Below, piece by piece: positions 8,070-33,310 of a stretch of 37,166 bases of DNA. The position numbers were made by a program, and so were the translations under genes. The notes under the pieces were generated by a model. That model was not told the DNA's origin, did not search any database, and saw only the letters and a program-made list of their open reading frames with translations. The stretch lies in the IMG/VR virus record IMGVR_UViG_3300035527_000387, positions 1-37,166 of that record. One strand, given 5' to 3'. The stretch comes from a virus (lineage: Duplodnaviria; Caudoviricetes). The number at the start of each line of letters is the position of its first letter. Position 1 is the stretch's first letter.

Positions 8070-8321
8070 TTACGGCATTGAGCGCCGGTTGATGAATGCG
8101 ATGAATGATTTGCGGTGAATCTTGAGGTAGCGTCGGCGGCTGGTTCCACAATCCCATCCTGTGATCAATCCGGCCTCCCACCATTCGTATATGTTCTCGG
8201 TCGGTACGTCGGCGGCTTCGGCCACTTCAACCGCAGGGATGAAGGGCTTCTTCGGCAGGCGCTCGATGATTTCCCGGGCAATGGCGTCGTCGAGGTCGAA
8301 CATTTGGAGTTGCTGGGTCAT
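8070..8321 (-). CDS. excisionase/MerR-like (HTH_17-type) DNA-binding protein
   Basis: EVAEAADVPTENIYEWWEAGLI...YLKIHRKSFIAFI winged-HTH pattern; RBS AAGGAGG. Confidence 0.8.
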   Translation of the reverse strand: MTQQLQMFDLDDAIAREIIERLPKKPFIPAVEVAEAADVPTENIYEWWEAGLITGWDCGTSRRRYLKIHRKSFIAFINRRSMP

Positions 8322-8836
8322 TGCCGGGCCTCCTTTTCGGTTGGCATGGGCTGTGTGCCTGCGGTATGATTCGCGGATGAGCGTTCTAAAAATGAATTGG
8401 TATGAGATTTCAGTTTGGATGCATGGCGAGTACACAAAGCTGTTGGATGACTGCTTTGATTTTCACGGAAGGGGCATCCCTCCGACTGAGCTTGCCGCGC
8501 AGTTGGCTTATTATAACGAGAGCACCAACGAAGAAATCGAAGATGCAATAGATGAATTCCTTGAAACAGGGGAATGGATACCACTCGCATCCTGTGCAAA
8601 AGTGATGCTGTTGATGAGGTTGAACTATGCCGCTGATTTGAGTTCTGCCCTGCGGTCATTCCCCTTTCATTCAACTGTTTGCAGCAGCAGGGCCGAAGCT
8701 GCTCGCTGGCTATTAGTTGATGCGTGGGATCAATCTGGTTTCTCAACCATTTACGATACGTTAGGGTCCCACCTTTAAACATATATTCCCGGTAGGCAGC
8801 CGAAGTCGGAAGCTTTTTGTAGAATAATTGAGCCAT
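8318..8836 (-). CDS. hypothetical ORF coupled to neighbours at both ends
   Basis: TGATG overlap at start and ATGA overlap at stop, but the C-terminal two thirds look low-complexity and lie antisense to 8392-8778. Confidence 0.4.
   Translation of the reverse strand: MAQLFYKKLPTSAAYREYMFKGGTLTYRKWLRNQIDPTHQLIASEQLRPCCCKQLNERGMTAGQNSNQRHSSTSSTASLLHRMRVVSIPLFQGIHLLHLRFLRWCSRYNKPTARQAQSEGCPFRENQSSHPTALCTRHASKLKSHTNSFLERSSANHTAGTQPMPTEKEARQ
8392..8778 (+). CDS. acidic hypothetical protein, antisense within the early operon
   Basis: MNWYEISVWMHGEY... 128 aa with globular-protein composition; AT-richer segment. Confidence 0.6.
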   Translation: MNWYEISVWMHGEYTKLLDDCFDFHGRGIPPTELAAQLAYYNESTNEEIEDAIDEFLETGEWIPLASCAKVMLLMRLNYAADLSSALRSFPFHSTVCSSRAEAARWLLVDAWDQSGFSTIYDTLGSHL

Positions 8837-9170: not shown

Positions 9171-9289
9171 TTGGTGCTTTCCCTTTCGTGGAATTACGTG
9201 TAATAATCGTTAACACATAATTTACACCTGTTTCGCACGCGGTCAAGTAGAAAAGTGTGAATTATGTGCGAATTGGTGATTTTGTGAAT
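9171..9289. promoter_or_regulatory. divergent lysis/lysogeny switch (early promoter and operators)
   Basis: Minus-strand TTGACC-N16-TAAATT (9246-9219); inverted repeat ACACATAATTTACAC (9213-9227) / GTGTGAATTATGTGC (9255-9269); repeated GTGYGAA half-sites. Confidence 0.6.
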
Positions 9290-9652
9290 ATTCGTCTGCA
9301 AAAATTAAGAAAAGAACTCCATCTCCAATGGGGCGAACTAGCTGAAAAGCTAGGTGTATCAAGATCTATGCTTGATCAGGTTCGAAAAGGAGTCAGGAAT
9401 TTTGGGCCGAAAACGGAGAGAAAATTACATGATCTGGAAGTCGATGCCGGAATAGCAAAAGTAAAACCAGTTTTACTTTTTGAGAATTCAGATTCACACA
9501 TAAGTGCGAATTTCGATGACCAAGCCACCTGCAAGACTTGTGCTGGGGTGTTTCTCGAAGCTATAGACAGGCTTGATGAATGTCAAAGGCAGCAACAGGC
9601 AGAATTGACGAGGTTGAGGAAAGAGATAAAGAAACTTATAGGAGGTGGGTGA
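9257..9652 (+). CDS. phage repressor, XRE-type HTH
   Basis: RLQKLRKELHLQWGELAEKLGVSRSMLDQVRKG HTH; C-terminal CxxC and coiled coil, no S24 peptidase; start may be GTG at 9284. Confidence 0.85.
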   Translation: MNYVRIGDFVNIRLQKLRKELHLQWGELAEKLGVSRSMLDQVRKGVRNFGPKTERKLHDLEVDAGIAKVKPVLLFENSDSHISANFDDQATCKTCAGVFLEAIDRLDECQRQQQAELTRLRKEIKKLIGGG

Positions 9653-10587
9653 TGACTTTAACAGCCTACACCGGTAGCGAATTCTCTGAGATACGGTGCA
9701 AATTAAACCACCTTATAAATCAGGTGGCAGCACTTAAATTGTATGACTACAGGGCAGTTGACGAGTTTATTGAATTCATGATTTGTCTCAACATCCCTGA
9801 AATGGAGCATGTGGCAGCTCTTCTTTTCGATTATTCATATGTGAAGCTTATTATTACCGTGAATAGTGAATTAAGAAAAACAAGAGAGGGGTTCATGCAT
9901 GAGCTGGCTAACGAGTTTACTCCGCAGATGTATTGCTATAAGGAACTTCTTTTGTACAAAAACGATGATGATGTTTTGTCAGAACTAACTGACATCTGGA
10001 AACGTAGCGGTGCCTGCGTAGTTGATGGACGGTTTATTGCATCGAAATATCATAAAGTTTGGAAAGCTCTAAGCCGTTTTGATTGCCAGCACGCACCATG
10101 GGACATATACGATTGGTTTAGTGTAATAGAAATGGACGATGACGAAGCAGCTTCGCTGGGCTTATCTTTAAAATATGCCGTGCCAAACCAAAAAGACATG
10201 AAATTTACGGATATAATTTTCTTTTTTGATGTAATACCTCATCCCAAATTCAGCACAGTTTCGGACCCCCTTGAAGAGTTTGAGACAAAGCGAATTGATA
10301 TTGAGGACATGAAGAAAGCGATATTGGTTGGTTATGCCACTCGCTTAGTTCGTGAAGCGGATGGGCGATTTCAGCCGAAGCAGTTAACCGAGCTTGAAGC
10401 ACTATTGCAAAGAGCAAGTGAATTACCCGGACCAGGGAACGATCAGATTTACAAAACTGCTGGTGCTGTTGCAGTGGCCTCAGGAAATATCGAGAACGCG
10501 ATTTTATATTATCAATATGCACTGGATTTAAACGCTAAGATCGGAGTAAAGACGAAGCTACAAAAGCTGAAAAAGGCATTGGGATAA
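9652..10587 (+). CDS. diverged MuF-like domain plus C-terminal TPR protein (lysogeny operon)
   Basis: TGATG-coupled to the repressor with RBS GGAGG; 17/45 ungapped identities to the MuF at 31375; C-terminal IYKTAG...GNIENAILYYQYALDLNAKIGVK TPR. Confidence 0.8.
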   Translation: MTLTAYTGSEFSEIRCKLNHLINQVAALKLYDYRAVDEFIEFMICLNIPEMEHVAALLFDYSYVKLIITVNSELRKTREGFMHELANEFTPQMYCYKELLLYKNDDDVLSELTDIWKRSGACVVDGRFIASKYHKVWKALSRFDCQHAPWDIYDWFSVIEMDDDEAASLGLSLKYAVPNQKDMKFTDIIFFFDVIPHPKFSTVSDPLEEFETKRIDIEDMKKAILVGYATRLVREADGRFQPKQLTELEALLQRASELPGPGNDQIYKTAGAVAVASGNIENAILYYQYALDLNAKIGVKTKLQKLKKALG

Positions 10588-10656
10588 TTTCCAACGGTTG
10601 GAAAACGCGCGCCTTAATTTTCCAACGGTTGGAAAAGTTTCCAGGGGTTGGGAAAC
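10588..10656. repeat. three palindromic TTTCCA-N5-TGGAAA-type REP-like repeats
   Basis: TTTCCAACGGTTGGAAA at 10588-10604, again within 10618-10636, and degenerate GTTTCCAGGGGTTGGGAAAC at 10637-10656. Confidence 0.85.
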
Positions 10657-10663
10657 GTGATAG

Positions 10664-10981
10664 GTGCTTAACAATTATGCAGAACGTGATATCGGAATAG
10701 AGCAAATGAAAATTCATGCTCGACGCGAACTTGCTGATGCAGCTATTGATTACTATGTTATCGGAAGCGGCAGGCTTTCTGATGACATAGGAAAGCTTGC
10801 TGGAGATGCCGCAATTAGCACAACAATAAAATCAAAAGTTTCTAGCAACGGTCATTTAACAGCTAAGGTTCAGGAGTATGGGAATGATGAAAATTATCAA
10901 AGCCAGGATGTCACTTCTATTGCTCGTTTCTTTGACAGGGATCGTTTTTATCAGCGTTTTCGTGTTTTTGAACATCCTTAA
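10664..10981 (+). CDS. hypothetical protein, possibly a 5'-truncated remnant
   Basis: Protein-like composition but weak start; begins right after the palindromic repeats and overlaps the next gene by about 100 nt. Confidence 0.4.
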   Translation: MLNNYAERDIGIEQMKIHARRELADAAIDYYVIGSGRLSDDIGKLAGDAAISTTIKSKVSSNGHLTAKVQEYGNDENYQSQDVTSIARFFDRDRFYQRFRVFEHP

Positions 10982-11336
10982 TGGCGGCAGATATATCTAT
11001 ACCGCTCACGCCGAGGCTGTTTCTAATATTGTATCAACATTTTGTGTCCTACTAATCGGGATTCTTTCAGCAGTCATCGTATTAGTAACAGGGATGAAAG
11101 ACAGCTATTTTGCAAGGAAATATCGCAGCAGTGGCGCACTAAAAAACTTGTTGTACTTTTACCTTTTTACGATAAGTACTGTGTTTGTAACTCACCTGCT
11201 GACAATAGCCTCGTTTTCTGCATACTATCTGTTTAAGCTAATGTTGGCTGCGTTAATTACAAATAATTTTCAAGTTATTCTAATCGCTTTTATTTGTCAT
11301 CATGTGGCCCATCAGCCAAGGGATGGCTTGGCGTAA
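10878..11336 (+). CDS. four-TM membrane protein (moron; candidate superinfection exclusion/defence)
   Basis: RBS CAGGAG; four hydrophobic segments; AT-rich; last gene before the terminator. Confidence 0.8.
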   Translation: MGMMKIIKARMSLLLLVSLTGIVFISVFVFLNILNGGRYIYTAHAEAVSNIVSTFCVLLIGILSAVIVLVTGMKDSYFARKYRSSGALKNLLYFYLFTISTVFVTHLLTIASFSAYYLFKLMLAALITNNFQVILIAFICHHVAHQPRDGLA

Positions 11337-11361
11337 AAGTGTCTTCAAGCCCACATCACAT

Positions 11362-11395
11362 AGCCCCGCTTTTTAGCGGGGCTTTTTTGTTTTTA
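11362..11395 (+). terminator. Rho-independent terminator of the lysogeny operon
   Basis: AGCCCCGCT-TTTT-AGCGGGGCT stem followed by TTTTTGTTTTTT. Confidence 0.9.
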
Positions 11396-13222: not shown

Positions 13223-15301
13223 ATGGTAAAAAATGCCGTCAATACCCTCGATGCAATGGTCAATGAGAACCTGAATCCGGCTCCGGAGATTTCATCCTTC
13301 ACTGAATTCCTTGAGAAGCATGCGAAGGTTCGACTTAATAACGGACGTTATGTGCCCTATTCGTTTGAGGGGCGACGGCCATTGATTTTCTGTGCGGAGC
13401 TGTTGTCTAAGATTATTCAGAACACAGTGCGTAGACAGGTGGTTGAAATCGACGAACGGATTTACGCACCGAGGGAACTTGTGGGCGCAACAGTGTCGAT
13501 TTGCGGGGGTGCGCAGTTTGGCAAAACGGTTCTGGAATTGAATTTTTCAGCATACTGCACATCTATCGAGTTCATTAACTTCGGTTATTATACTCCGGAT
13601 AAAGAGCTGCTGAATACGATTGTCGACACGAAGTTCCGCCCGGATGTTGTTGATCAGATCGAATGGCTCCCTGAAATGATTGAGTTGAATAAGGCAGAGG
13701 GGAAATCCGGCAAATCGGTTAACAAAAAGAATTCGTATCAGATCAGTGATGGGAAACGGACGGCGTTTGGCTATTTCGTTGGTTTGCAGAAGCCGACAAC
13801 AACAATCTCCCTGGATGTAGCGGCGTGTGACGAAACGGATGATATACCGAAGAAGAACATCGGTTTTGTTTCCGGTCGTATGACGAACAGCGATGTAAAG
13901 TTAACCTGCTATATCGGCACGCAGCGTATTCATGGAGCCGGGCAGAACGAACGTTTTGAGTCGGGGACGCAGCACAAGTGGACGGTAACGTGTCCGCATT
14001 GCTGCATGGCTATCTGCATAGAGGAACACTGGCCGCAGGTCTGCCGTGTATCGAAAACGGGCGCTGCTGATTGTAATGATCCGCAGCTCAGTGAGGAAAT
14101 GACGTATGATCCTTCTTATCTGTATTACGCGGCCTGTCCTGATTGCGGGACTCCAATTGATCGGGACAGCGGCGCTTACATACCCACCAGACCGGACAAG
14201 GCCAAGCAGCTTAATTTCAGCATACGGGTATCTCAAATGGGCGTCGAGGCGATCGATTGGGAAAGCCAGGTTGCGAGCTGGTTTGCGGCGCTCCAGGACC
14301 CGGATGGCGAGGCGCTTATCGCCTGGCATTGTGACAGGCGGGCGATTCCGCATGCCGGGTCCGCGCAGCCGATTACCCCCGAAGTTGTGCAGCGCTGCAT
14401 TGATTGCGGGCTGAAAGACTCTGTTGAGGATGAAACAGACCGCACCTACTGCATGAGCATGATGCCGAAACAGCATCCCCGCGTTATGGGTATGGATACC
14501 GGGCCGCGCTGCTGGATGTGGATCGATGACATTGTGTCTCCGGTCTGCACGCCGATGGTATGGGCTGAGAAGGTTTCGAGCGGTCGCGCAGAAGCGCGAG
14601 TGCTTGAGCTGTTCTATGCTCTGGATATCGATACGGTTTTTATCGATGCCGGTGGCGAGCCTGAGTTGACGAAGAGCATCGTGCTCAAGCTTAACGGGCT
14701 GGACAGCTACTCGCCGCCTGTCGTTTCGTTTTCTGATTTGAAGAATATGAGGCTGCTGGATATCGGTGCCGGTGTAACCTGGGATGGTGACCAGGGACGC
14801 TGGATCAACATCAAGGCTGCTGCTGTGCTGTTCAGTAAATCGCAGGGCTCCGGTGTGCAGCATGACATAGGCCGAACGGTAGACGGGCAGATTTATCCCC
14901 TGATCAAGTGCAACCGGTATGATGCAATATCTGCTGCGGTGAATGACTTTGGCATTCCGAAGGACGGCGTGATTGAGCAGATTGAGATTGACGGAAAGGT
15001 AGAGCTGCGCCGCATGCCGCGTGCCCGCCTGCCGAAAACCTATATCGGAAACGGTGCAGAAGCATCTGTTGTGCATGCTCACCTGACGAATCTGCGAAAA
15101 ATAAAGAATTCAAAAACAGGCGTCGAGGATTGGGCAGAAGGAATTGAAAACCATCTCGGTTTGTCGAAGGTATACGCCCGCATTGCATCACAGGTCGTTG
15201 TGAATGCTCCGAAGGTTAATCCTGGCCGTTTCCATCGCTTTAAACAGAACCGTCACACGGCGGCGCGTTATGCGCGCAGATCAAGGAGTCTGATCGGATG
15301 A
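13223..15301 (+). CDS. terL: terminase large subunit, lambda GpA-type
   Basis: Walker A GAQFGKT, Walker B AACDETD, CPHC...CPDC zinc motifs, nuclease GMDTG and FIDAG; start could be 13214. Confidence 0.88.
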   Translation: MVKNAVNTLDAMVNENLNPAPEISSFTEFLEKHAKVRLNNGRYVPYSFEGRRPLIFCAELLSKIIQNTVRRQVVEIDERIYAPRELVGATVSICGGAQFGKTVLELNFSAYCTSIEFINFGYYTPDKELLNTIVDTKFRPDVVDQIEWLPEMIELNKAEGKSGKSVNKKNSYQISDGKRTAFGYFVGLQKPTTTISLDVAACDETDDIPKKNIGFVSGRMTNSDVKLTCYIGTQRIHGAGQNERFESGTQHKWTVTCPHCCMAICIEEHWPQVCRVSKTGAADCNDPQLSEEMTYDPSYLYYAACPDCGTPIDRDSGAYIPTRPDKAKQLNFSIRVSQMGVEAIDWESQVASWFAALQDPDGEALIAWHCDRRAIPHAGSAQPITPEVVQRCIDCGLKDSVEDETDRTYCMSMMPKQHPRVMGMDTGPRCWMWIDDIVSPVCTPMVWAEKVSSGRAEARVLELFYALDIDTVFIDAGGEPELTKSIVLKLNGLDSYSPPVVSFSDLKNMRLLDIGAGVTWDGDQGRWINIKAAAVLFSKSQGSGVQHDIGRTVDGQIYPLIKCNRYDAISAAVNDFGIPKDGVIEQIEIDGKVELRRMPRARLPKTYIGNGAEASVVHAHLTNLRKIKNSKTGVEDWAEGIENHLGLSKVYARIASQVVVNAPKVNPGRFHRFKQNRHTAARYARRSRSLIG

Positions 15302-16881
15302 GTAACGTAGCCCCGAAATACATCCAGATGCACATGGATGCGCTGAATAAGTGGCGCACCACGCTGAACCCGCTGCGCGGGCTGAGTATGACACGCATTG
15401 TCTCGATGCTGGAGGCCGGTGAGCGCGGCGAGTATTTGGACCTGCAATGGCTGTTCCGTTTTATCGAAAAGCGGGATGCGACGATTCGGGGATTGAAGCG
15501 GTTGCGGCTATCCGCGATCGGGAATTGTGAATGGACCATCAAGACGGTTCCGGAGGATGAGTTGCCGAAGGGCGCGACGCAGGCGCAGGCGGATAAGCAG
15601 GCGACGGAGTTGCGGGCGGCGTATGACCAGATCGACAATCTGAATGCGGCGATTGATCATCTGGCACTTGCGGAATTTCGCGGCTACTCGCATCTGGCAA
15701 AGGTGTATGCGGGGAAATACATTGATGACGGGATCGAACGGCTGGAGCCGTGGGATCAGTGGTTCTGGCTGCGTGACGGGCTTTATGGTGAGTGGCTGCT
15801 TAACCCGGACCTGAAGCATTCGATCCATACCGGAGAATCCATTGATACATCCCATTGGATTATACGCGAGGTGGATGATCCTATTGATGAGATTGCCCTG
15901 ATTGCCTACTTGCGCAAGAATCTTTCGCAGAAGGACTGGGACGGCTTTATCGAGGTTTTCGGGATTCCGGCGATATTCCTGATCATGCCGCCGAATGTGC
16001 CGCAGGATAAGGAGGAGGAATACCAGGATACGGCTGAGGCAATTATTGCGGATGCGAGGGGAACGCTGCCGAACGGGTCGGACATCAAGACGGCGGGCGG
16101 GGATGTGCGGGGGAATGCGCCTTTTAAAGATCACATCAATTACCAGGACAGTCAGATTGTGCTGGCAGGCACAAGCGGCAAGCTGACAATGCTGAACGAT
16201 CCGACTGGTTTGGGGTCCGGTCAGAGCAATGCGCACCAGGATACCTTTGATGAACTTGCGGAGGCGGAAGCGAAAGTTATTGCGGAGCTTTTCCAGCAGT
16301 CGATTGATGCGCCGCTGCTGGAGCGTATGTTTCCGGGACAGCCTGCGCTGGCCTACTTCTATTTTGGCAAACCGGACAGCGAGGATATCAGCGCCGTGCT
16401 TGAGCATGACAGCGCACTGGCGGCTTCCGGTCGCCGGATTGCAACAGATGATCTGGAAGAACGTACGGGATACACGATTGAAGATAACCCGTCGAGTGGT
16501 TCGGCGGTGGATGCGGGCGGGAGTAAAGCAAACAATAAGAACACTTCATATATTTACTCTCCCGCCCGTGTTTCCAATCGCTCTGCAACGGCTGTGGAAG
16601 CAGAAGACAAGCTTATTGAAAATGCGCGGATGGTTATGGCGGAGGCTGCTGCAAATGACATGCTGCCGGTTACCAAACGCCTTGGGGACATCCTTGATAA
16701 CTCTCCTGATGAAACCCTTGCCGCTGATCTGCAAAGGTTCCTGGAAACGGAACTTCCAGAACTGGCGAAAGAGGTCATGGCCAACCCGCAAACGGCTGAT
16801 GCGCTGGACGGGACCATAACAGCAGGGATCATTAACGGGAACATTGAGGCTTATGCGGGAAAGAAGGTGGGCAATGAATAG
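15298..16881 (+). CDS. portal protein (Mu gp29/DUF935 family)
   Basis: EKRDATI, AEFRGYS, DWDGFIEVFGIP, GLGSGQSNAH motifs; ATGA overlap with TerL. Confidence 0.92.
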   Translation: MSNVAPKYIQMHMDALNKWRTTLNPLRGLSMTRIVSMLEAGERGEYLDLQWLFRFIEKRDATIRGLKRLRLSAIGNCEWTIKTVPEDELPKGATQAQADKQATELRAAYDQIDNLNAAIDHLALAEFRGYSHLAKVYAGKYIDDGIERLEPWDQWFWLRDGLYGEWLLNPDLKHSIHTGESIDTSHWIIREVDDPIDEIALIAYLRKNLSQKDWDGFIEVFGIPAIFLIMPPNVPQDKEEEYQDTAEAIIADARGTLPNGSDIKTAGGDVRGNAPFKDHINYQDSQIVLAGTSGKLTMLNDPTGLGSGQSNAHQDTFDELAEAEAKVIAELFQQSIDAPLLERMFPGQPALAYFYFGKPDSEDISAVLEHDSALAASGRRIATDDLEERTGYTIEDNPSSGSAVDAGGSKANNKNTSYIYSPARVSNRSATAVEAEDKLIENARMVMAEAAANDMLPVTKRLGDILDNSPDETLAADLQRFLETELPELAKEVMANPQTADALDGTITAGIINGNIEAYAGKKVGNE

Positions 16882-17530
16882 TGCAGCTTTGACACCAGGA
16901 ATTGAATACACCTGTCAGGACCCGCTGTATGGCGTTAACTATGATGCGGGCTATACCGGGTTCACCTGCACGGTTGACCGGTCGGCTATCAGCAAGGGTA
17001 TAGCCTGGTTTTCCAGGTGGGACCAGCTCGGGGATATCAGCGTGACGCATGCGCTGACGGTGACCGGCCCAAACACCTGTGTTGAGGCGCTGATTGACCA
17101 GGGGGTTGTTGTTACTGAGCTTGACCGCTACTTCAATGATCCGAACGTGCTCATATTTTTCCGCAAGCCGATTCAATATGACAGCTATATGGCCCGCAAC
17201 ATTGTGGAGGCTGTGTGCAGCCAGGTGGGGACGCAGTACGACGACGGTCTCATAAAGGCGCACGCGATACGTAACACGTATCTGGGCCGTCTGCTGGCAC
17301 TGACGACCAAGCAGCTTTCCGACGGGTGGATCACGGCCATGCTTGAGAATCCCGCTGAGTGGATATGCAGCGAGCTGGCCGCATACGGGCTGAACGGTGA
17401 TCCGCGCCTGGCCGGGCTCGGCGTGCTGCGCTACCCGCCGACTATGATCCTGCCGCAAACCCTTTTCGAAGATGAGGAAATCTATGACCCGTGGCATCAG
17501 CCGCACAACCAAAGGAGTATCGCATCATGA
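16874..17530 (+). CDS. permuted papain-like NlpC/P60 amidase (YaeF/YiiX, C92-like)
   Basis: His motif THALTV, VEAL..GVV, GTQYD and C-terminal WICSELAAY catalytic-Cys motif. Confidence 0.8.
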   Translation: MNSAALTPGIEYTCQDPLYGVNYDAGYTGFTCTVDRSAISKGIAWFSRWDQLGDISVTHALTVTGPNTCVEALIDQGVVVTELDRYFNDPNVLIFFRKPIQYDSYMARNIVEAVCSQVGTQYDDGLIKAHAIRNTYLGRLLALTTKQLSDGWITAMLENPAEWICSELAAYGLNGDPRLAGLGVLRYPPTMILPQTLFEDEEIYDPWHQPHNQRSIAS

Positions 17531-26432: not shown

Positions 26433-27830
26433 TTGAAAAGATATGTTTACCAAATACTGCTACAGATTGTTACCCCCATTATGGCTCTGGGAGCTATCAA
26501 TATTGAATCTTTCGAAGTAACCGGCAGCAACTCAGCGACCCTTACCTGGACTAACAGCGTATCAACCGGCTACTACCGCGTGGCGTGGTGCAGCGACCTG
26601 GTGCTTTCCAACTGGTCTTCTTCCTGGAGCAGCCTTCAGCAGTTCGGCGGCACCAGCAATCAGACCATTACCGTTGACCTGCCAGGGTATTACCGGATGA
26701 TTCATTCAAACAGCGAGTTTGCGGTTGAAACCAACCACCCGATCGACGCCGCCGCAGAAACCTGGTACCCGCTGAACGCATACGGACGGGCCGCCATCGA
26801 AAACCTGGAACCCGGTGCGCAGTACGCCGTCGATTGGCACAACGGAACTGAATGGGTGCGCGGATGGCAGGAGCTTTGCAATATCGCTGCAACCGGTCTG
26901 CAGATGACCGCCAATGTGCCCGTTTCATTCCGCCTTGCCGTACTCTCAACCAATCCGCCAGCTCCGGCAACCAACGAGGTGTACGTGTTCGGCGGAACCT
27001 ATGAGTATGGTGCGGACGGACGCGGGGTGGCGGTCGATGGATTCTATGTCTCCGTCGCCGAGGTTACAGAATCTGAATGGCAGCACGTATATTCCTGGGC
27101 CGCGACCAACGGCTATGACTTTACCGCAGGCGGCCTGGCAGACCAGTTTTATACCAATTATCCGGTGGTTTCAGTCAGTTGGTTCGATGCCTGCAAGTGG
27201 CTGAACGCAAAATCAGAAATGGACAGCCTGACCCCATGCTACACCCGCACCGGAAGCGTATATCGCACCGGCGAATACGAACCCGTCTGCGCCTGGACCA
27301 ACAGCGGATACCGCCTGCCCACCGAAGCCGAATGGGAACGCGCTGCGCGCGGGTTCATCACCGGCGGCTATTTCCCCTGGGGCGGAACCAATGTCAATGA
27401 TATTGGCGGACAGGACGCCAATTACCGCAACTCAGGTGACCTTTCCGAGGTCATGCCCCGACTGCTTACGCCCGTAAAAGGATGGTCCTACCAGCCCGAC
27501 CGCTACAGCGAACTGCTCTCCAATATGCTGCCGTCCGATGAACTGTTCCGCCTGCAAACCTACAACATATATCCATACCCCCCCAATGATTACGGGCTGT
27601 ATGACATGGCAGGCAACGCCGCCGAATGGTGCTGGGACTGGTACACACACGCCGGACCTCCCGCCGGATCAACCAACTCAACCGGACCGGCCAGCGGAAC
27701 CCGCCGCGTCATTCGCGGAGGCCACTGCCTCTCTAATACAGACCGCGTTACCGTTTACCGCCGGTCCTTCGCAAAACCGGATAAAGTGTCGGATATCGTC
27801 GGATTCCGATACGTGAGGAGAAGGATGTGA
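26433..27830 (+). CDS. exported FGE-sulfatase (SUMF1/C-type-lectin-fold) domain protein
   Basis: EVT...W, PVVSVSWFDA, GYRLPTEAEWERAARG, PNDYGLYDMAGNAAEWCWDWY, RVIRGG, VGFR; TTG start and probable signal peptide; two N-terminal repeats. Confidence 0.9.
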   Translation: MKRYVYQILLQIVTPIMALGAINIESFEVTGSNSATLTWTNSVSTGYYRVAWCSDLVLSNWSSSWSSLQQFGGTSNQTITVDLPGYYRMIHSNSEFAVETNHPIDAAAETWYPLNAYGRAAIENLEPGAQYAVDWHNGTEWVRGWQELCNIAATGLQMTANVPVSFRLAVLSTNPPAPATNEVYVFGGTYEYGADGRGVAVDGFYVSVAEVTESEWQHVYSWAATNGYDFTAGGLADQFYTNYPVVSVSWFDACKWLNAKSEMDSLTPCYTRTGSVYRTGEYEPVCAWTNSGYRLPTEAEWERAARGFITGGYFPWGGTNVNDIGGQDANYRNSGDLSEVMPRLLTPVKGWSYQPDRYSELLSNMLPSDELFRLQTYNIYPYPPNDYGLYDMAGNAAEWCWDWYTHAGPPAGSTNSTGPASGTRRVIRGGHCLSNTDRVTVYRRSFAKPDKVSDIVGFRYVRRRM

Positions 27831-30316: not shown

Positions 30317-31378
30317 ATGAGAAATCTTTTAATTTGTCTGATTATTGCACTGGTCGCAGAAATTGCCCAGGCCGCAGAAATTGAAATCAAAAATGTTTTG
30401 TTCACATACGCGCGTGAGGATGAGCTGAACAGCATAGTCGTTGAGCGGGACACAGCCGTGTACAATATCAACGACCCCCATGATTTAAGGATCGGAGACG
30501 GCGTTACCACCGGCGGCTGGAGGGTTTGCCGAACAGACGTACTCACAAATGCGCCATCCTCGTTCCCGCATCCGATCCAAATGAACGAGCACGCGATCAA
30601 CCTCAGCCATACCTATTCCATAGGCGCAGAGGGTGCAGCATTCTTCCTGCGCAGCGGCGGGTCAAACGTCCTGGCCATCGTGGCCGGTGAAGAAGGCGTT
30701 GGGACCATTATCTCCCGCTCTTTTTCTGACGACATCTATACCATCAATATGTCGGTGCCAGATAATGCCGATACGCCACTGGTGCAGTATTCCTCGACCA
30801 TGGTCCCGGCTGCCTGGACCGGTTGTACGTATTCTGTTTCCAACACCAGCCCGAACACGATGCGCATTGATATCACAACAACAGAGGATGCTGGATACTA
30901 CCGCATCAGCGCACTGTCAGGGCATCGTGCCCGGTTCGCCGTACCTGTTCATGTGCCCGCGCTAACGGTCAATGGGTCGGCTAACGTTGAGGCAGGGGCG
31001 CAACTCAATAGCCTACAGGTTGGAGTAACCGGCCCACAGGACATTATGAGCAGCGAAGGCAAGCTGACACTTGGAGGTGGCAGCAACTGGAATAGCGGGG
31101 CATACATGGAGCTTGGGGCAGACACCCTAACCGGGAATGATGTAGCCAATGGTTCAGCTCAACTAGTCTTGCGGAATAATGCTTCTTCATTCCGTATCCG
31201 TGACCGTGACGGCTGGAACAGTACGCTGGAAGTGAAAAACGAAAGCGTTATAATAAGCGGAGCACTCAATGTGGGAGGCGCAATAATTGTGACCAACCTG
31301 CCTACGACCGATCCCGGCGTCAACGGCCAGTTATGGCGCAACACGTCTAACCTGTATATATCCACCGGCAACCCATGA
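30317..31378 (+). CDS. exported fibre-like protein
   Basis: Signal ending AQA-AE; LRIGDGVTTGG fibre N-terminal motif; C-terminal NLPTTDPGVNGQLW motif; shares a 52 aa module with the previous gene. Confidence 0.75.
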   Translation: MRNLLICLIIALVAEIAQAAEIEIKNVLFTYAREDELNSIVVERDTAVYNINDPHDLRIGDGVTTGGWRVCRTDVLTNAPSSFPHPIQMNEHAINLSHTYSIGAEGAAFFLRSGGSNVLAIVAGEEGVGTIISRSFSDDIYTINMSVPDNADTPLVQYSSTMVPAAWTGCTYSVSNTSPNTMRIDITTTEDAGYYRISALSGHRARFAVPVHVPALTVNGSANVEAGAQLNSLQVGVTGPQDIMSSEGKLTLGGGSNWNSGAYMELGADTLTGNDVANGSAQLVLRNNASSFRIRDRDGWNSTLEVKNESVIISGALNVGGAIIVTNLPTTDPGVNGQLWRNTSNLYISTGNP

Positions 31379-32583
31379 TCACCGACCCCACACCAATAAA
31401 TCACGCCCTCGAAAGCCGCCGCATCAAGCGGCTGCTTCCGACTTCGGCCGGATCGGCCGCATTAAGCAGCCTCGCTCCGGAGATCCGCGAGCGTTCGACA
31501 TTCTCCGCCCGCACCGATAATCCCCGCTATCTCTCCGACATCGAGTTCTTCCTCACCGACCTCACAAAAGGAAAACTCGACCCGGCCACCGTTCGCCTTC
31601 GCCTCAAACAGCGCCTTGATTACTACGGTTATGACCCCGCATCGAAAGGCATCATCCCCGGTTCGCTCCAGGACCTGTCCTCCGACAACCGCACCAACCT
31701 CATCATTGAGATGCAGGAAAAGTTTGCGCACGGCTACGCCCAGTTTGAAGCCGATCAGGACCCGGCCCTGCTCGACCTTTGGCCCTGCTGGGAATTCGTA
31801 CGCCATGAATCCCGGCGCAAGGAACGCACCGACTGGCCGCAACGTTTTCTTGCTGCCGGTGGCCAGCTCTACGGTGGCCGCATGATCGCACGAAAGGATT
31901 CCCCCGTATGGGCTGCCCTGTCCGTTTTCGGCCTGCCGTATCCCCCTTTTGATTATAACAGCGGCATGGGCCTCGATGATGTTGAACGCGCCGAAGCCGA
32001 AGCCCTGGGCGTCATCACAAAGCGCACCGTCGTTAAACCGCAGTCGCGTCGCCTGAATGATTCCGTGCAGGCTTCTCTCCCATCCTTCAGCAACCCGGAT
32101 CTGCAAGCCGAGGTTTTAAAGGCATTCGGAAAAGACATCATCGCCGCCGGTGAAACGGCCTGGCTGCTGCCCGCCGGAAATGCCGCCGCACGTTCCACCG
32201 CCATCGCCCAGCAAACCGCCGCAGGAACCGGCATTATGCGTCAGGTCATTGACTCCACAGAAGATGCCTACAACGCCCTCTACGTTCCCGATATCGGCCC
32301 CGTTGACTTCCGCTGGGGTGATGACGGCAAGGGCGTTCGGCACATCATTAAGCGCCGTGACGATTACCTCAAATCAAAAGGCGATGGCCCAACAGGAGAA
32401 CAGACCGCCCTGCGCATGCCAGAGGTGATCATCAAAGGAAAACGCATCCAGCAAATCAATGACCGTGTTCGTATCGAATACGACGGTTATATCGCCGTTT
32501 TGGTCAACCGGCTGGATGGAAAGAAGGTCAATCGCTGGATTCTGACCGGCTTTGATGAGGATAAAAAGAAAGGGAACCGATGA
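31375..32583 (+). CDS. MuF (gpF-like) head protein with C-terminal PBECR1-like RNase toxin domain
   Basis: RSTFSAR, DLSS..R..LII, YPPFDYNSGM MuF-type motifs; C-terminal IGPVDFRWGDDGKGVRHII...MPEVIIKG...WILTGF BECR-fold pattern. Confidence 0.8.
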   Translation: MITDPTPINHALESRRIKRLLPTSAGSAALSSLAPEIRERSTFSARTDNPRYLSDIEFFLTDLTKGKLDPATVRLRLKQRLDYYGYDPASKGIIPGSLQDLSSDNRTNLIIEMQEKFAHGYAQFEADQDPALLDLWPCWEFVRHESRRKERTDWPQRFLAAGGQLYGGRMIARKDSPVWAALSVFGLPYPPFDYNSGMGLDDVERAEAEALGVITKRTVVKPQSRRLNDSVQASLPSFSNPDLQAEVLKAFGKDIIAAGETAWLLPAGNAAARSTAIAQQTAAGTGIMRQVIDSTEDAYNALYVPDIGPVDFRWGDDGKGVRHIIKRRDDYLKSKGDGPTGEQTALRMPEVIIKGKRIQQINDRVRIEYDGYIAVLVNRLDGKKVNRWILTGFDEDKKKGNR

Positions 32584-32663
32584 ACCCGGCGAAGGTGACA
32601 ATTCAACCGGGCCTACGCGCTGACAGCCTACAAGGAATTCGTCTGCCAACGGGTGCGGTTCCT
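32572..32663 (+). ncRNA. candidate structured RNA overlapping the toxin stop codon
   Basis: Closing stem GGAACCG/CGGTTCC, inner CCCGG/CCGGG hairpin, a third imperfect stem; pairing judged by eye only. Confidence 0.35.
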
Positions 32664-32758
32664 GTATCTATAAATACGCCTGGAACTTCCCGCTGTCAAT
32701 CGCCTGCTCCAGCAAATCCTGGAGGGCGGAGCTCCGCGATTCCGCCGAGGAGGCTGCC

Positions 32759-33310
32759 ATGCTGAACGCGAGAATAAACAAAGATACCGCCCGTCCCTTT
32801 CTGCGTCGCCTTCAGCAGTCAGGGCCATCCGCCCGGCAGGTCGTCGGCAAGGCCGCTGCAAACACCTATAAATCACATTTCCGTCGCCTTGATTCATCCA
32901 GGCACCGCACCACCGCCCGTCATCACTTCTACGGGCGTGCCGCCAATGCCACTTCATGGTTCGTACGCGGTAACGATGTTTATGTCCGTATCCAGCAGGA
33001 AGGCATCGCACAGCGTTACTACGGCGGCCGCATCCGGCCACGCTACGCCAAAGCACTCACCATCGCCACACGCCGCGCAGTCGGCAAAAGAGCGCGCGAA
33101 TTCAACGACCTCTTCATGGTCTGGCGCAAAGGCAAATCAACCGGCTATCTCGCCCGAATCGAAGGCGGCGCGCTGCGCATATACTTCTGGCTCGTTCGCG
33201 AGGTGAACCAGAAAGGCGACAAGTCGGTACTGCCAAAACCATCCACCGTCTATGATCGCGTCAACCATGCCCTCGATGCCCACTACACCCGCCTGGAGGC
33301 TCAGCAATGA
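32759..33310 (+). CDS. Mu gpG-like virion morphogenesis (neck) protein
   Basis: Very basic; QRYYGGRIRP..AKALTI motif; follows MuF as G follows F in Mu; RBS GAGGAGG. Confidence 0.7.
   Translation: MLNARINKDTARPFLRRLQQSGPSARQVVGKAAANTYKSHFRRLDSSRHRTTARHHFYGRAANATSWFVRGNDVYVRIQQEGIAQRYYGGRIRPRYAKALTIATRRAVGKRAREFNDLFMVWRKGKSTGYLARIEGGALRIYFWLVREVNQKGDKSVLPKPSTVYDRVNHALDAHYTRLEAQQ

What the first reader, a model, noticed from the sequence alone, without database searches (positions are those of the whole stretch)
9652..10587. Repressor-coupled gene is a diverged copy of the phage's own MuF domain fused to a TPR
Seen: GRFIASKYHKVWKALSRFDCQHAPWDIYDWFSVIEMDDDEAASLG (10027-10161) aligns without gaps to GRMIARKDSPVWAALSVFGLPYPPFDYNSGMGLDDVERAEAEALG of the virion MuF (31876-32010) with 17/45 identities. 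Weaker similarity continues upstream (KLII versus NLII; CYKEL versus PCWEF). The gene is AT-richer, TGATG-coupled to the repressor and so probably expressed in the lysogen. It has a C-terminal TPR instead of the toxin. Established: MuF proteins are minor head proteins linked to portal and DNA ejection. Inference: a domesticated MuF acting as a dominant-negative decoy or sensor against related phages, or as a trans-acting antidote to the injected MuF toxin.
Basis: partly seen in the sequence, partly recalled or inferred. Interest (0 to 1): 0.82.

Follow-up and report, generated by a model that had tools for sequence, protein, structure and literature searches.

The report
Head-protein domain domesticated behind prophage repressor
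Right behind its repressor gene this prophage carries a stripped-down relative of a phage head protein (MuF) joined to a protein-binding repeat; such genes recur in related prophages and host chromosomes and likely help the host cell block rival phages, which is untested.

Summary
The homology is real. Gene 9652-10587 encodes the core of the MuF head-protein fold (residues 13-195) plus a C-terminal TPR. It is TGATG-coupled to the repressor and AT-rich. It is probably not a copy of this phage's own MuF: it groups with a separate MuF-core+TPR family, and its own MuF ranks 44 of 60 by identity, although an AU test cannot exclude sisterhood. A second, leaderless MuF core sits in the repressor operon of five other Mu-like PVC prophages, bare or with TPR-like, GYF_2 or zinc-ribbon-like additions. 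Similar genes occur in host chromosomes with no phage genes seen nearby. These copies keep the fold but lose arginines conserved in virion MuFs. Best reading: a lysogen-expressed anti-phage factor that engages the head or portal machinery of rival phages (0.45). Antidote is unlikely: 4 of 6 such prophages have toxin-less MuF. No binding, expression or protection was shown. Earlier scan notes report a membrane-anchored MuF domain behind cI on other DNA (unchecked).

The parts
9257..9652 (+). Repressor-like HTH gene, first gene of the rightward operon
   Evidence: Pfam HTH_3 E 1.6e-6; divergent from the early genes; inverted repeat 9214-9227/9255-9268 at its start
9652..10587 (+). Leaderless MuF-core + TPR protein, 311 aa (P0001)
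   Evidence: TGATG overlap and GGAGG; family N-termini align to this start rather than to ATG 9580
9688..10236 (+). MuF core (about residues 13-195), matching virion MuF 51-235; lacks the MuF N-terminal leader
   Evidence: hhalign; same secondary-structure order in both models; no leader-model match
10300..10584 (+). TPR helical domain (about residues 217-311)
   Evidence: VIA-align Z 12.6 to an idealised TPR; PHROG 74 terminase small subunit tail E 8.5e-7
10588..10655 (.). Three 18-nt palindromic REP-like repeats between this gene and the RexA fragment
   Evidence: same repeat runs into unrelated DNA in other contigs, and two contigs bridge the junction without differences
10664..10981 (+). 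RexA-like C-terminal fragment (model positions 207-262 of 267 only)
   Evidence: PADLOC PDLC02339 E 6.5e-6; six-frame search finds no further part
10878..11336 (+). RexB-like membrane protein, full model length
   Evidence: PADLOC PDLC02340 E 1e-8, positions 4-135 of 141
11362..11383 (+). Intrinsic terminator-like stem closing the operon
   Evidence: 9-pair stem and T run
15298..16881 (+). Portal protein, the expected partner of virion MuF
   Evidence: Pfam Portal_Mu E 4e-45
31375..32583 (+). Virion-type MuF with C-terminal PBECR1 predicted RNase (P0002)

Best explanation
The gene encodes a MuF head-protein core fused to a TPR, sits in the repressor operon, and is likely a lysogen-made defence factor that would engage the head-assembly machinery (portal, procapsid or incoming MuF) of rival Mu-like phages and so spoil or flag their infection. 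Shown: the fold, the TPR, the loss of the MuF leader, the operon position, the recurrence, and the RexA'/RexB neighbours. From the literature: MuF/gp7 binds portal and supports infectivity. Inferred: co-expression with the repressor; that the kept core still binds a portal-vertex component; that the added TPR, GYF_2 or zinc-ribbon modules block the site or recruit a host or effector protein; and that distance from the phage's own MuF plus shut-off of the repressor promoter on induction spare the carrier.
For: Position: all six prophages found with a second leaderless MuF core have it in the repressor operon, five directly behind the repressor and one a gene further. Of 155 leader-bearing MuF ORFs in fetched loci none has a repressor-like HTH within 1.5 kb upstream; 6 of 27 leaderless ones do (the HTH model was built from these repressors). 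Each copy is lower in GC than its record, as cargo genes tend to be. Here the operon also holds RexA- and RexB-like ORFs, a known defence pair behind cI (PMC12894663, passages). Structural W/G/P/F positions are kept in 26 non-virion copies, so the fold is under selection. The family is portal-linked: a portal-MuF fusion and MuF directly behind portal occur in relatives, and SPP1 gp7 binds portal (PMC6316719, passages). Prophage proteins that block assembly of rival virions exist (Tab, PMC10884400, abstract).
Against: Arginines nearly invariant in 61 virion MuFs are largely lost in the non-virion copies (R121 7 of 26, R125 6 of 22, R129 13 of 26, R84 12 of 22; model numbering). If they form the portal-binding face, a decoy would fail. 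This protein is among the most degenerate members (longest branch; it even lacks the family's conserved W131 and R84). Chromosomal members lie among housekeeping genes (hemC-hemD; ABC transporter and sugar genes), not in recognised defence islands. None of the 14 non-virion copies and family members scanned hits PADLOC with a meaningful match. The genes behind Mu-like repressors vary widely, so position alone shows lysogen cargo, not defence.
Confidence: 0.45

Rival explanations
1. An exapted interaction module with a role unrelated to phage heads, or near-neutral cargo: the MuF core is reused as a generic domain with TPR, GYF_2 or zinc-ribbon partners and is carried at the permissive site behind the repressor.
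For: Chromosomal copies with no portal or repressor HTH found in about 5 kb flanks: P0132 between hemC and hemD, four GYF_2 fusions, solo cores near ParE or IS3. Loss of the virion arginines and the SGM motif.
Against: Repeated placement behind repressors of phages that also keep a virion MuF (6 of 6), with different added domains and probably more than one origin (six-copy clade p-AU 0.064), is more than drift predicts.
Confidence: 0.25
2. It replaces the lost N-terminal part of RexA as the sensor: the MuF core detects a rival's portal or DNA-protein complex, and the TPR triggers the RexB-like membrane effector for abortive infection.
For: It stands where most of rexA would be in a cI-rexA-rexB layout. 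RexA is cut to its last fifth while RexB is full length. RexA is the proposed sensor and RexB the effector (PMC12894663, passages).
Against: The RexB model is not found in the five other prophage-bearing records (0 of 5; nothing rang in that call's controls either). REP-like repeats at the junction suggest a chance recombination that decapitated rexA. The Rex models also ring in 1 and 2 of 14 control genomes.
Confidence: 0.11
3. A regulator of lysogeny that acts with the repressor, for example by binding DNA or the repressor and tuning induction or transposition.
For: Translational coupling to the repressor here and in G039 and G222. gp7 is described as DNA-binding (reference title in PMC6316719).
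Against: The basic residues most likely to contact DNA are the ones lost. Chromosomal members have no repressor nearby.
Confidence: 0.1
4. A trans-acting antidote to the PBECR1 RNase carried by the phage's own MuF.
For: The window's MuF bears PBECR1, and the 61-aa ORF behind it does not look like a convincing immunity gene.
Against: Four of the six prophages have 266-290 aa MuFs with no toxin domain. The shared part is the targeting core, not a toxin-binding module. MuF immunity genes normally follow the toxin directly (PMC5576092, passages).
Confidence: 0.06
5. A decaying leftover of a duplicated head gene with no function.
For: Long branch and loss of motifs.
Against: Intact 311-aa frame with RBS; confident two-domain model (pLDDT 83); full-length relatives with the same architecture at 25-33% identity; no DNA similarity to the virion gene.
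Confidence: 0.03

Closest known systems
MuF / SPP1 gp7 minor head proteins (Pfam PF04233 Phage_Mu_F; MuF polymorphic toxins, PMC5576092)
   Same: Same core domain. A PF04233-positive protein aligns to the virion family at probability 99.4, and that family aligns to this gene's family at 100.
   Different: Encoded in the repressor operon, not the late region. Lacks the N-terminal leader, the cysteine or SGM motif and the conserved arginines. Ends in a TPR, not a toxin. Occurs beside an intact virion MuF, and relatives occur in host chromosomes.
Lambda RexAB and RexAB-type systems (PMC12894663)
   Same: Repressor operon ending in RexA- and RexB-like ORFs and a terminator.
   Different: RexA is reduced to its last fifth; a MuF-TPR gene stands between repressor and rex; the pairing was not found in the other five prophage records.
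Tab (PMC10884400) and Tai (PMC11364771), prophage- or satellite-encoded blockers of tail assembly
   Same: Proposed mode: a prophage protein made in the lysogen interferes with assembly of rival virions.
   Different: They target tails. No homology was tested here, and the passages seen do not describe them as derived from a virion protein.
Avs STAND-TPR sensors of portal and terminase; mouse Fv1 (both recalled, no call)
   Same: TPR-based sensing of phage portal; a domesticated viral structural protein used as a restriction factor.
   Different: No NTPase or effector domain here; analogy only.

Membership tests
MuF superfamily (domain) | Homology to PF04233 | tested here: met
   Indirect: no direct Pfam hit for this gene or for any of 121 virion relatives. 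The family profile finds PF04233-positive proteins, and one aligns over 177 columns, E 4.8e-21. Foldseek of the virion model hits 'phage head morphogenesis' models at E 4e-4.
Virion MuF proteins | Gene in the head or late module, often behind portal | tested here: not met
   Lies in the repressor operon, 4.7 kb before the portal gene
Virion MuF proteins | N-terminal leader of the PVC MuF family | tested here: not met
   Leader HMM: virion MuF 77 bits, this gene no match
Virion MuF proteins | Binds portal and is packaged in the head | not tested
   The complex-prediction queue was full; the job was not run
MuF polymorphic toxins | C-terminal toxin domain followed by a small immunity ORF | tested here: not met
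   The C-terminus is a TPR; the virion gene carries the PBECR1
Paralog by recent duplication of own MuF | Sister to the phage's own MuF | tested here: inconclusive
   Free trees place it with the TPR family (88/96) and own MuF ranks 44 of 60, but AU p 0.27 does not reject sisterhood
RexAB system (neighbouring ORFs) | Full-length RexA | tested here: not met
   Only model positions 207-262 of 267
RexAB system (neighbouring ORFs) | RexB membrane protein behind rexA, downstream of the repressor | tested here: met
   Positions 4-135 of 141, E 2e-9; the model rings in 2 of 14 control genomes
Anti-phage defence gene | Protects against phage | not testable with these tools
   Needs phage challenge

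The most novel reading that the evidence does not exclude
Prophages and their PVC hosts have repeatedly domesticated the portal-targeting MuF head domain, stripped of its packaging leader and toxin, into a class of restriction factors or sensors against rival phages' heads, a bacterial counterpart of Fv1. In this phage the domain may have taken over RexA's sensing role for RexB.
Probability: 0.3. Interest if true: 0.86.

Novelty: new variant of a known kind. Interest (0 to 1): 0.66.

Why it matters
MuF's own function is poorly known. A recurring non-virion form gives natural separation-of-function variants: the leader and arginines that it loses point to what packaging needs, and the kept core points to a second binding function. 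If it protects, it adds head or portal interference by a domesticated structural domain to the known tail-assembly blockers. It also offers a testable lead on what can trigger RexB-type effectors.

Tried and rejected
Word-index protein search found only the gene itself; the exhaustive search found the family. Pattern scans of viral contigs with this gene, the virion MuF alone, P0132, P0127, P0130 and the RexB-like ORF found nothing. tblastn of this gene and the two Rex-like ORFs in annotated phages or plasmids: no match. The Atlas gave only TPR look-alikes, and nothing for the core. No solved MuF structure surfaced, and Foldseek of this gene's model in the viral library gave nothing at E 0.001; absence there shows nothing. 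DNA-mimic idea rejected: core charge -8 against -3.9 +/- 6.0 in 195 other cores. An AU test on 78 rows did not finish; 30-row tests reject neither own-MuF sisterhood (p 0.27), one clade of all non-virion copies (p 0.35) nor one clade of the six repressor-side copies (p 0.064). Portal-binding prediction was not run because the queue was full. No RNA holder listed. Several partial genome hits appear to be broken, cut or mis-started virion MuFs (L166, L169-L172, L179, L181-L183, L201, L202, L207) and are not counted as domesticated copies. Literature searches listed no paper on MuF domains outside the virion; the library lacks most subscription papers, and supplements of PMC5576092 were not read.

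Full report
Setting. The window is a Mu-like provirus record with transposase and transposition-protein genes leftward, and terminase, Portal_Mu, Mu-type protease and capsid genes rightward. The closest relatives of its virion MuF are mostly in Verrucomicrobiota and Kiritimatiellota genomes, so a PVC host is inferred.

Observation. BLASTP gives E 8e-8. A profile of 121 virion relatives scores the gene 41 bits, against 3.5 for the next of 486 window ORFs and 4.5 for the best of 2000 shuffles. Family against family, residues 13-209 align to virion MuF 51-249 with probability 100. Predicted models show the same order of helices and strands (pLDDT 93 and 83). Residues 219-311 are a TPR (Z 12.6). 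The TGATG overlap, a GGAGG site and low GC (0.41 against 0.53) are confirmed.

Is it MuF? Neither protein hits PF04233 directly. The family profile, however, recovers PF04233-positive proteins. One aligns over 177 columns at E 4.8e-21, with its cysteine motif opposite the family's SGM motif. Relatives include a portal-MuF fusion and MuF genes directly behind portal. The virion protein is therefore a cysteine-less MuF branch with a PBECR1 tail, an architecture described in PMC5512222 (passages).

Not the phage's own copy. A search of 1.84 billion representatives returned 29 hits, among them proteins with the same core, a shared new N-terminus, a conserved aromatic-Asp-Pro linker and, in seven, a TPR. 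Own MuF is 19% identical over the core, rank 44 of 60. A profile of the family without this protein scores its core 111 bits and its first 60 residues 28 bits; the virion profile gives 42 and nothing. The family was picked with this protein as query, which favours that result. A 30-row tree puts it in the TPR-family clade at 88/96, but an AU test does not reject sisterhood with own MuF (p 0.27). There is no DNA similarity between the two genes. Acquisition from an older pool is the better reading.

Recurrence. Of 80 viral records bearing a virion relative, 2 hold a second gene. Overlapping genome samples (in the large samples only 6-12 candidates were scored per genome) gave partial matches, of which I fetched a subset. 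Five further Mu-like prophages carry a leaderless core in the repressor operon, 7-22 kb from an intact virion MuF: G004 and G222 (N-terminal zinc-ribbon-like CxxC pairs, judged by eye), G039 (bare), G124 (GYF_2, E 3e-5, below cut-off; one membrane gene between) and G1029 (helical tail with a TPR-like end, by eye). G039 and G222 have the same stop-start coupling. None of 155 leader-bearing MuF ORFs has a repressor-like HTH within 1.5 kb upstream, against 6 of 27 leaderless ones. That model was trained on these repressors, and many of the other 21 look like broken virion genes. Two more cores lie on the repressor strand of small elements (G123 beside tRNA-Asp, G1538). Others are chromosomal: the TPR-family member P0132 between hemC and hemD, four GYF_2 fusions (two above cut-off) and bare cores near ParE, IS3 or a kinase. 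The contexts of the other TPR-family proteins could not be fetched. Trees suggest more than one origin but do not prove it.

What is kept and lost. Across 26 non-virion copies the Trp, Gly, Pro and Phe core is kept (W135, G139, A149, W156 in 26 of 26). Arginines that are nearly invariant in 61 virion MuFs, and the SGM motif, are mostly lost (partly circular, since the copies were found by profile). None of the family proteins scanned has the leader. The fold is retained while virion-specific features are shed. Whether the lost arginines bind DNA or portal is unknown, and this decides how well a decoy could work.

The operon. The two ORFs behind the gene match PADLOC RexA (last fifth only) and RexB (full length), followed by a strong terminator. 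Lambda rexAB lies just behind cI, with RexA as the proposed sensor and RexB as the membrane effector (PMC12894663, passages). Three REP-like palindromes separate the gene from the rexA fragment. Two contigs from other runs bridge this junction unchanged, so it is not an assembly join; those runs may be one campaign. The RexB model was not found in the other five records, so the pairing is local. The operon reads as a defence-cargo site.

Mechanism. SPP1 gp7 is targeted to the procapsid by portal, and virions without it are about 25% infectious (PMC6316719, passages). A leaderless core made in the lysogen could occupy that site on a rival's portal, or bind its MuF, and either spoil particles, as Tab does for tails (PMC10884400, abstract), or signal through the TPR. 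Every functional step is inferred: expression, binding and protection were not shown, and the complex prediction could not be queued. I give this 0.45, a non-phage or neutral reuse 0.25, a RexB-triggering sensor 0.11, a lysogeny regulator 0.10, an antidote 0.06 (4 of 6 prophages have toxin-less MuF) and decay 0.03.

Novelty. PMC5576092 (first sixth of the text and passages) treats muf genes as packaging-module genes; its supplements were not read. Five searches listed no description of non-virion MuF domains. For Tai I saw the search listing and three passages. Two earlier scan notes describe a membrane-anchored PF04233 domain behind cI in other prophages; I did not check them, and they are leads, not support. 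Verdict: a real, recurring, apparently undescribed non-virion variant of the MuF domain, with defence the likeliest role. Interest 0.66.

Noticed in passing
window 10664-11383: Decapitated rexA and intact rexB-like gene with terminator behind the repressor operon of a PVC Mu-like phage.
   Followed up: partly
window 10588-10655: Three 18-nt palindromic REP-like repeats that also occur in many unrelated contigs of the same metagenomes; probably a host repeat picked up by the phage.
   Followed up: partly
window 31375-33310: The virion MuF lies among tail genes just before the tape measure, 14.5 kb from portal; its PBECR1 has no convincing immunity ORF behind it.
   Followed up: partly
window 8161-8778 (+): An AT-richer 205-aa ORF on the strand opposite the early genes, with no family hit; possible second cargo gene.
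   Followed up: no
window 26433-27830 (+): FGE-sulfatase-like domain protein (E 2e-36) in the tail region, of the kind that diversity-generating retroelements target (recalled); no reverse transcriptase was looked for.
   Followed up: no
window 16844-17530 (+): Weak permuted papain-like amidase (Peptidase_C92, E 0.045) directly behind portal, where MuF usually sits.
   Followed up: no
P0130: Family member that keeps the N-terminus, linker and TPR but has the MuF core replaced by a membrane-like segment, so the core is swappable within the TPR scaffold.
   Followed up: no
L081 7424-7969 and L168 9009-9557: Homologous exported proteins (28% identity, E 8e-16) follow the zinc-ribbon MuF cores in two prophages; possible exclusion proteins.
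   Followed up: partly
L206 4959-7463: Natural portal-MuF fusion of 835 aa.
   Followed up: partly
L192 11588-14894: Small element beside tRNA-Asp with repressor, excisionase-like HTH genes and a leaderless MuF core; no head genes seen in the fetched stretch.
   Followed up: partly
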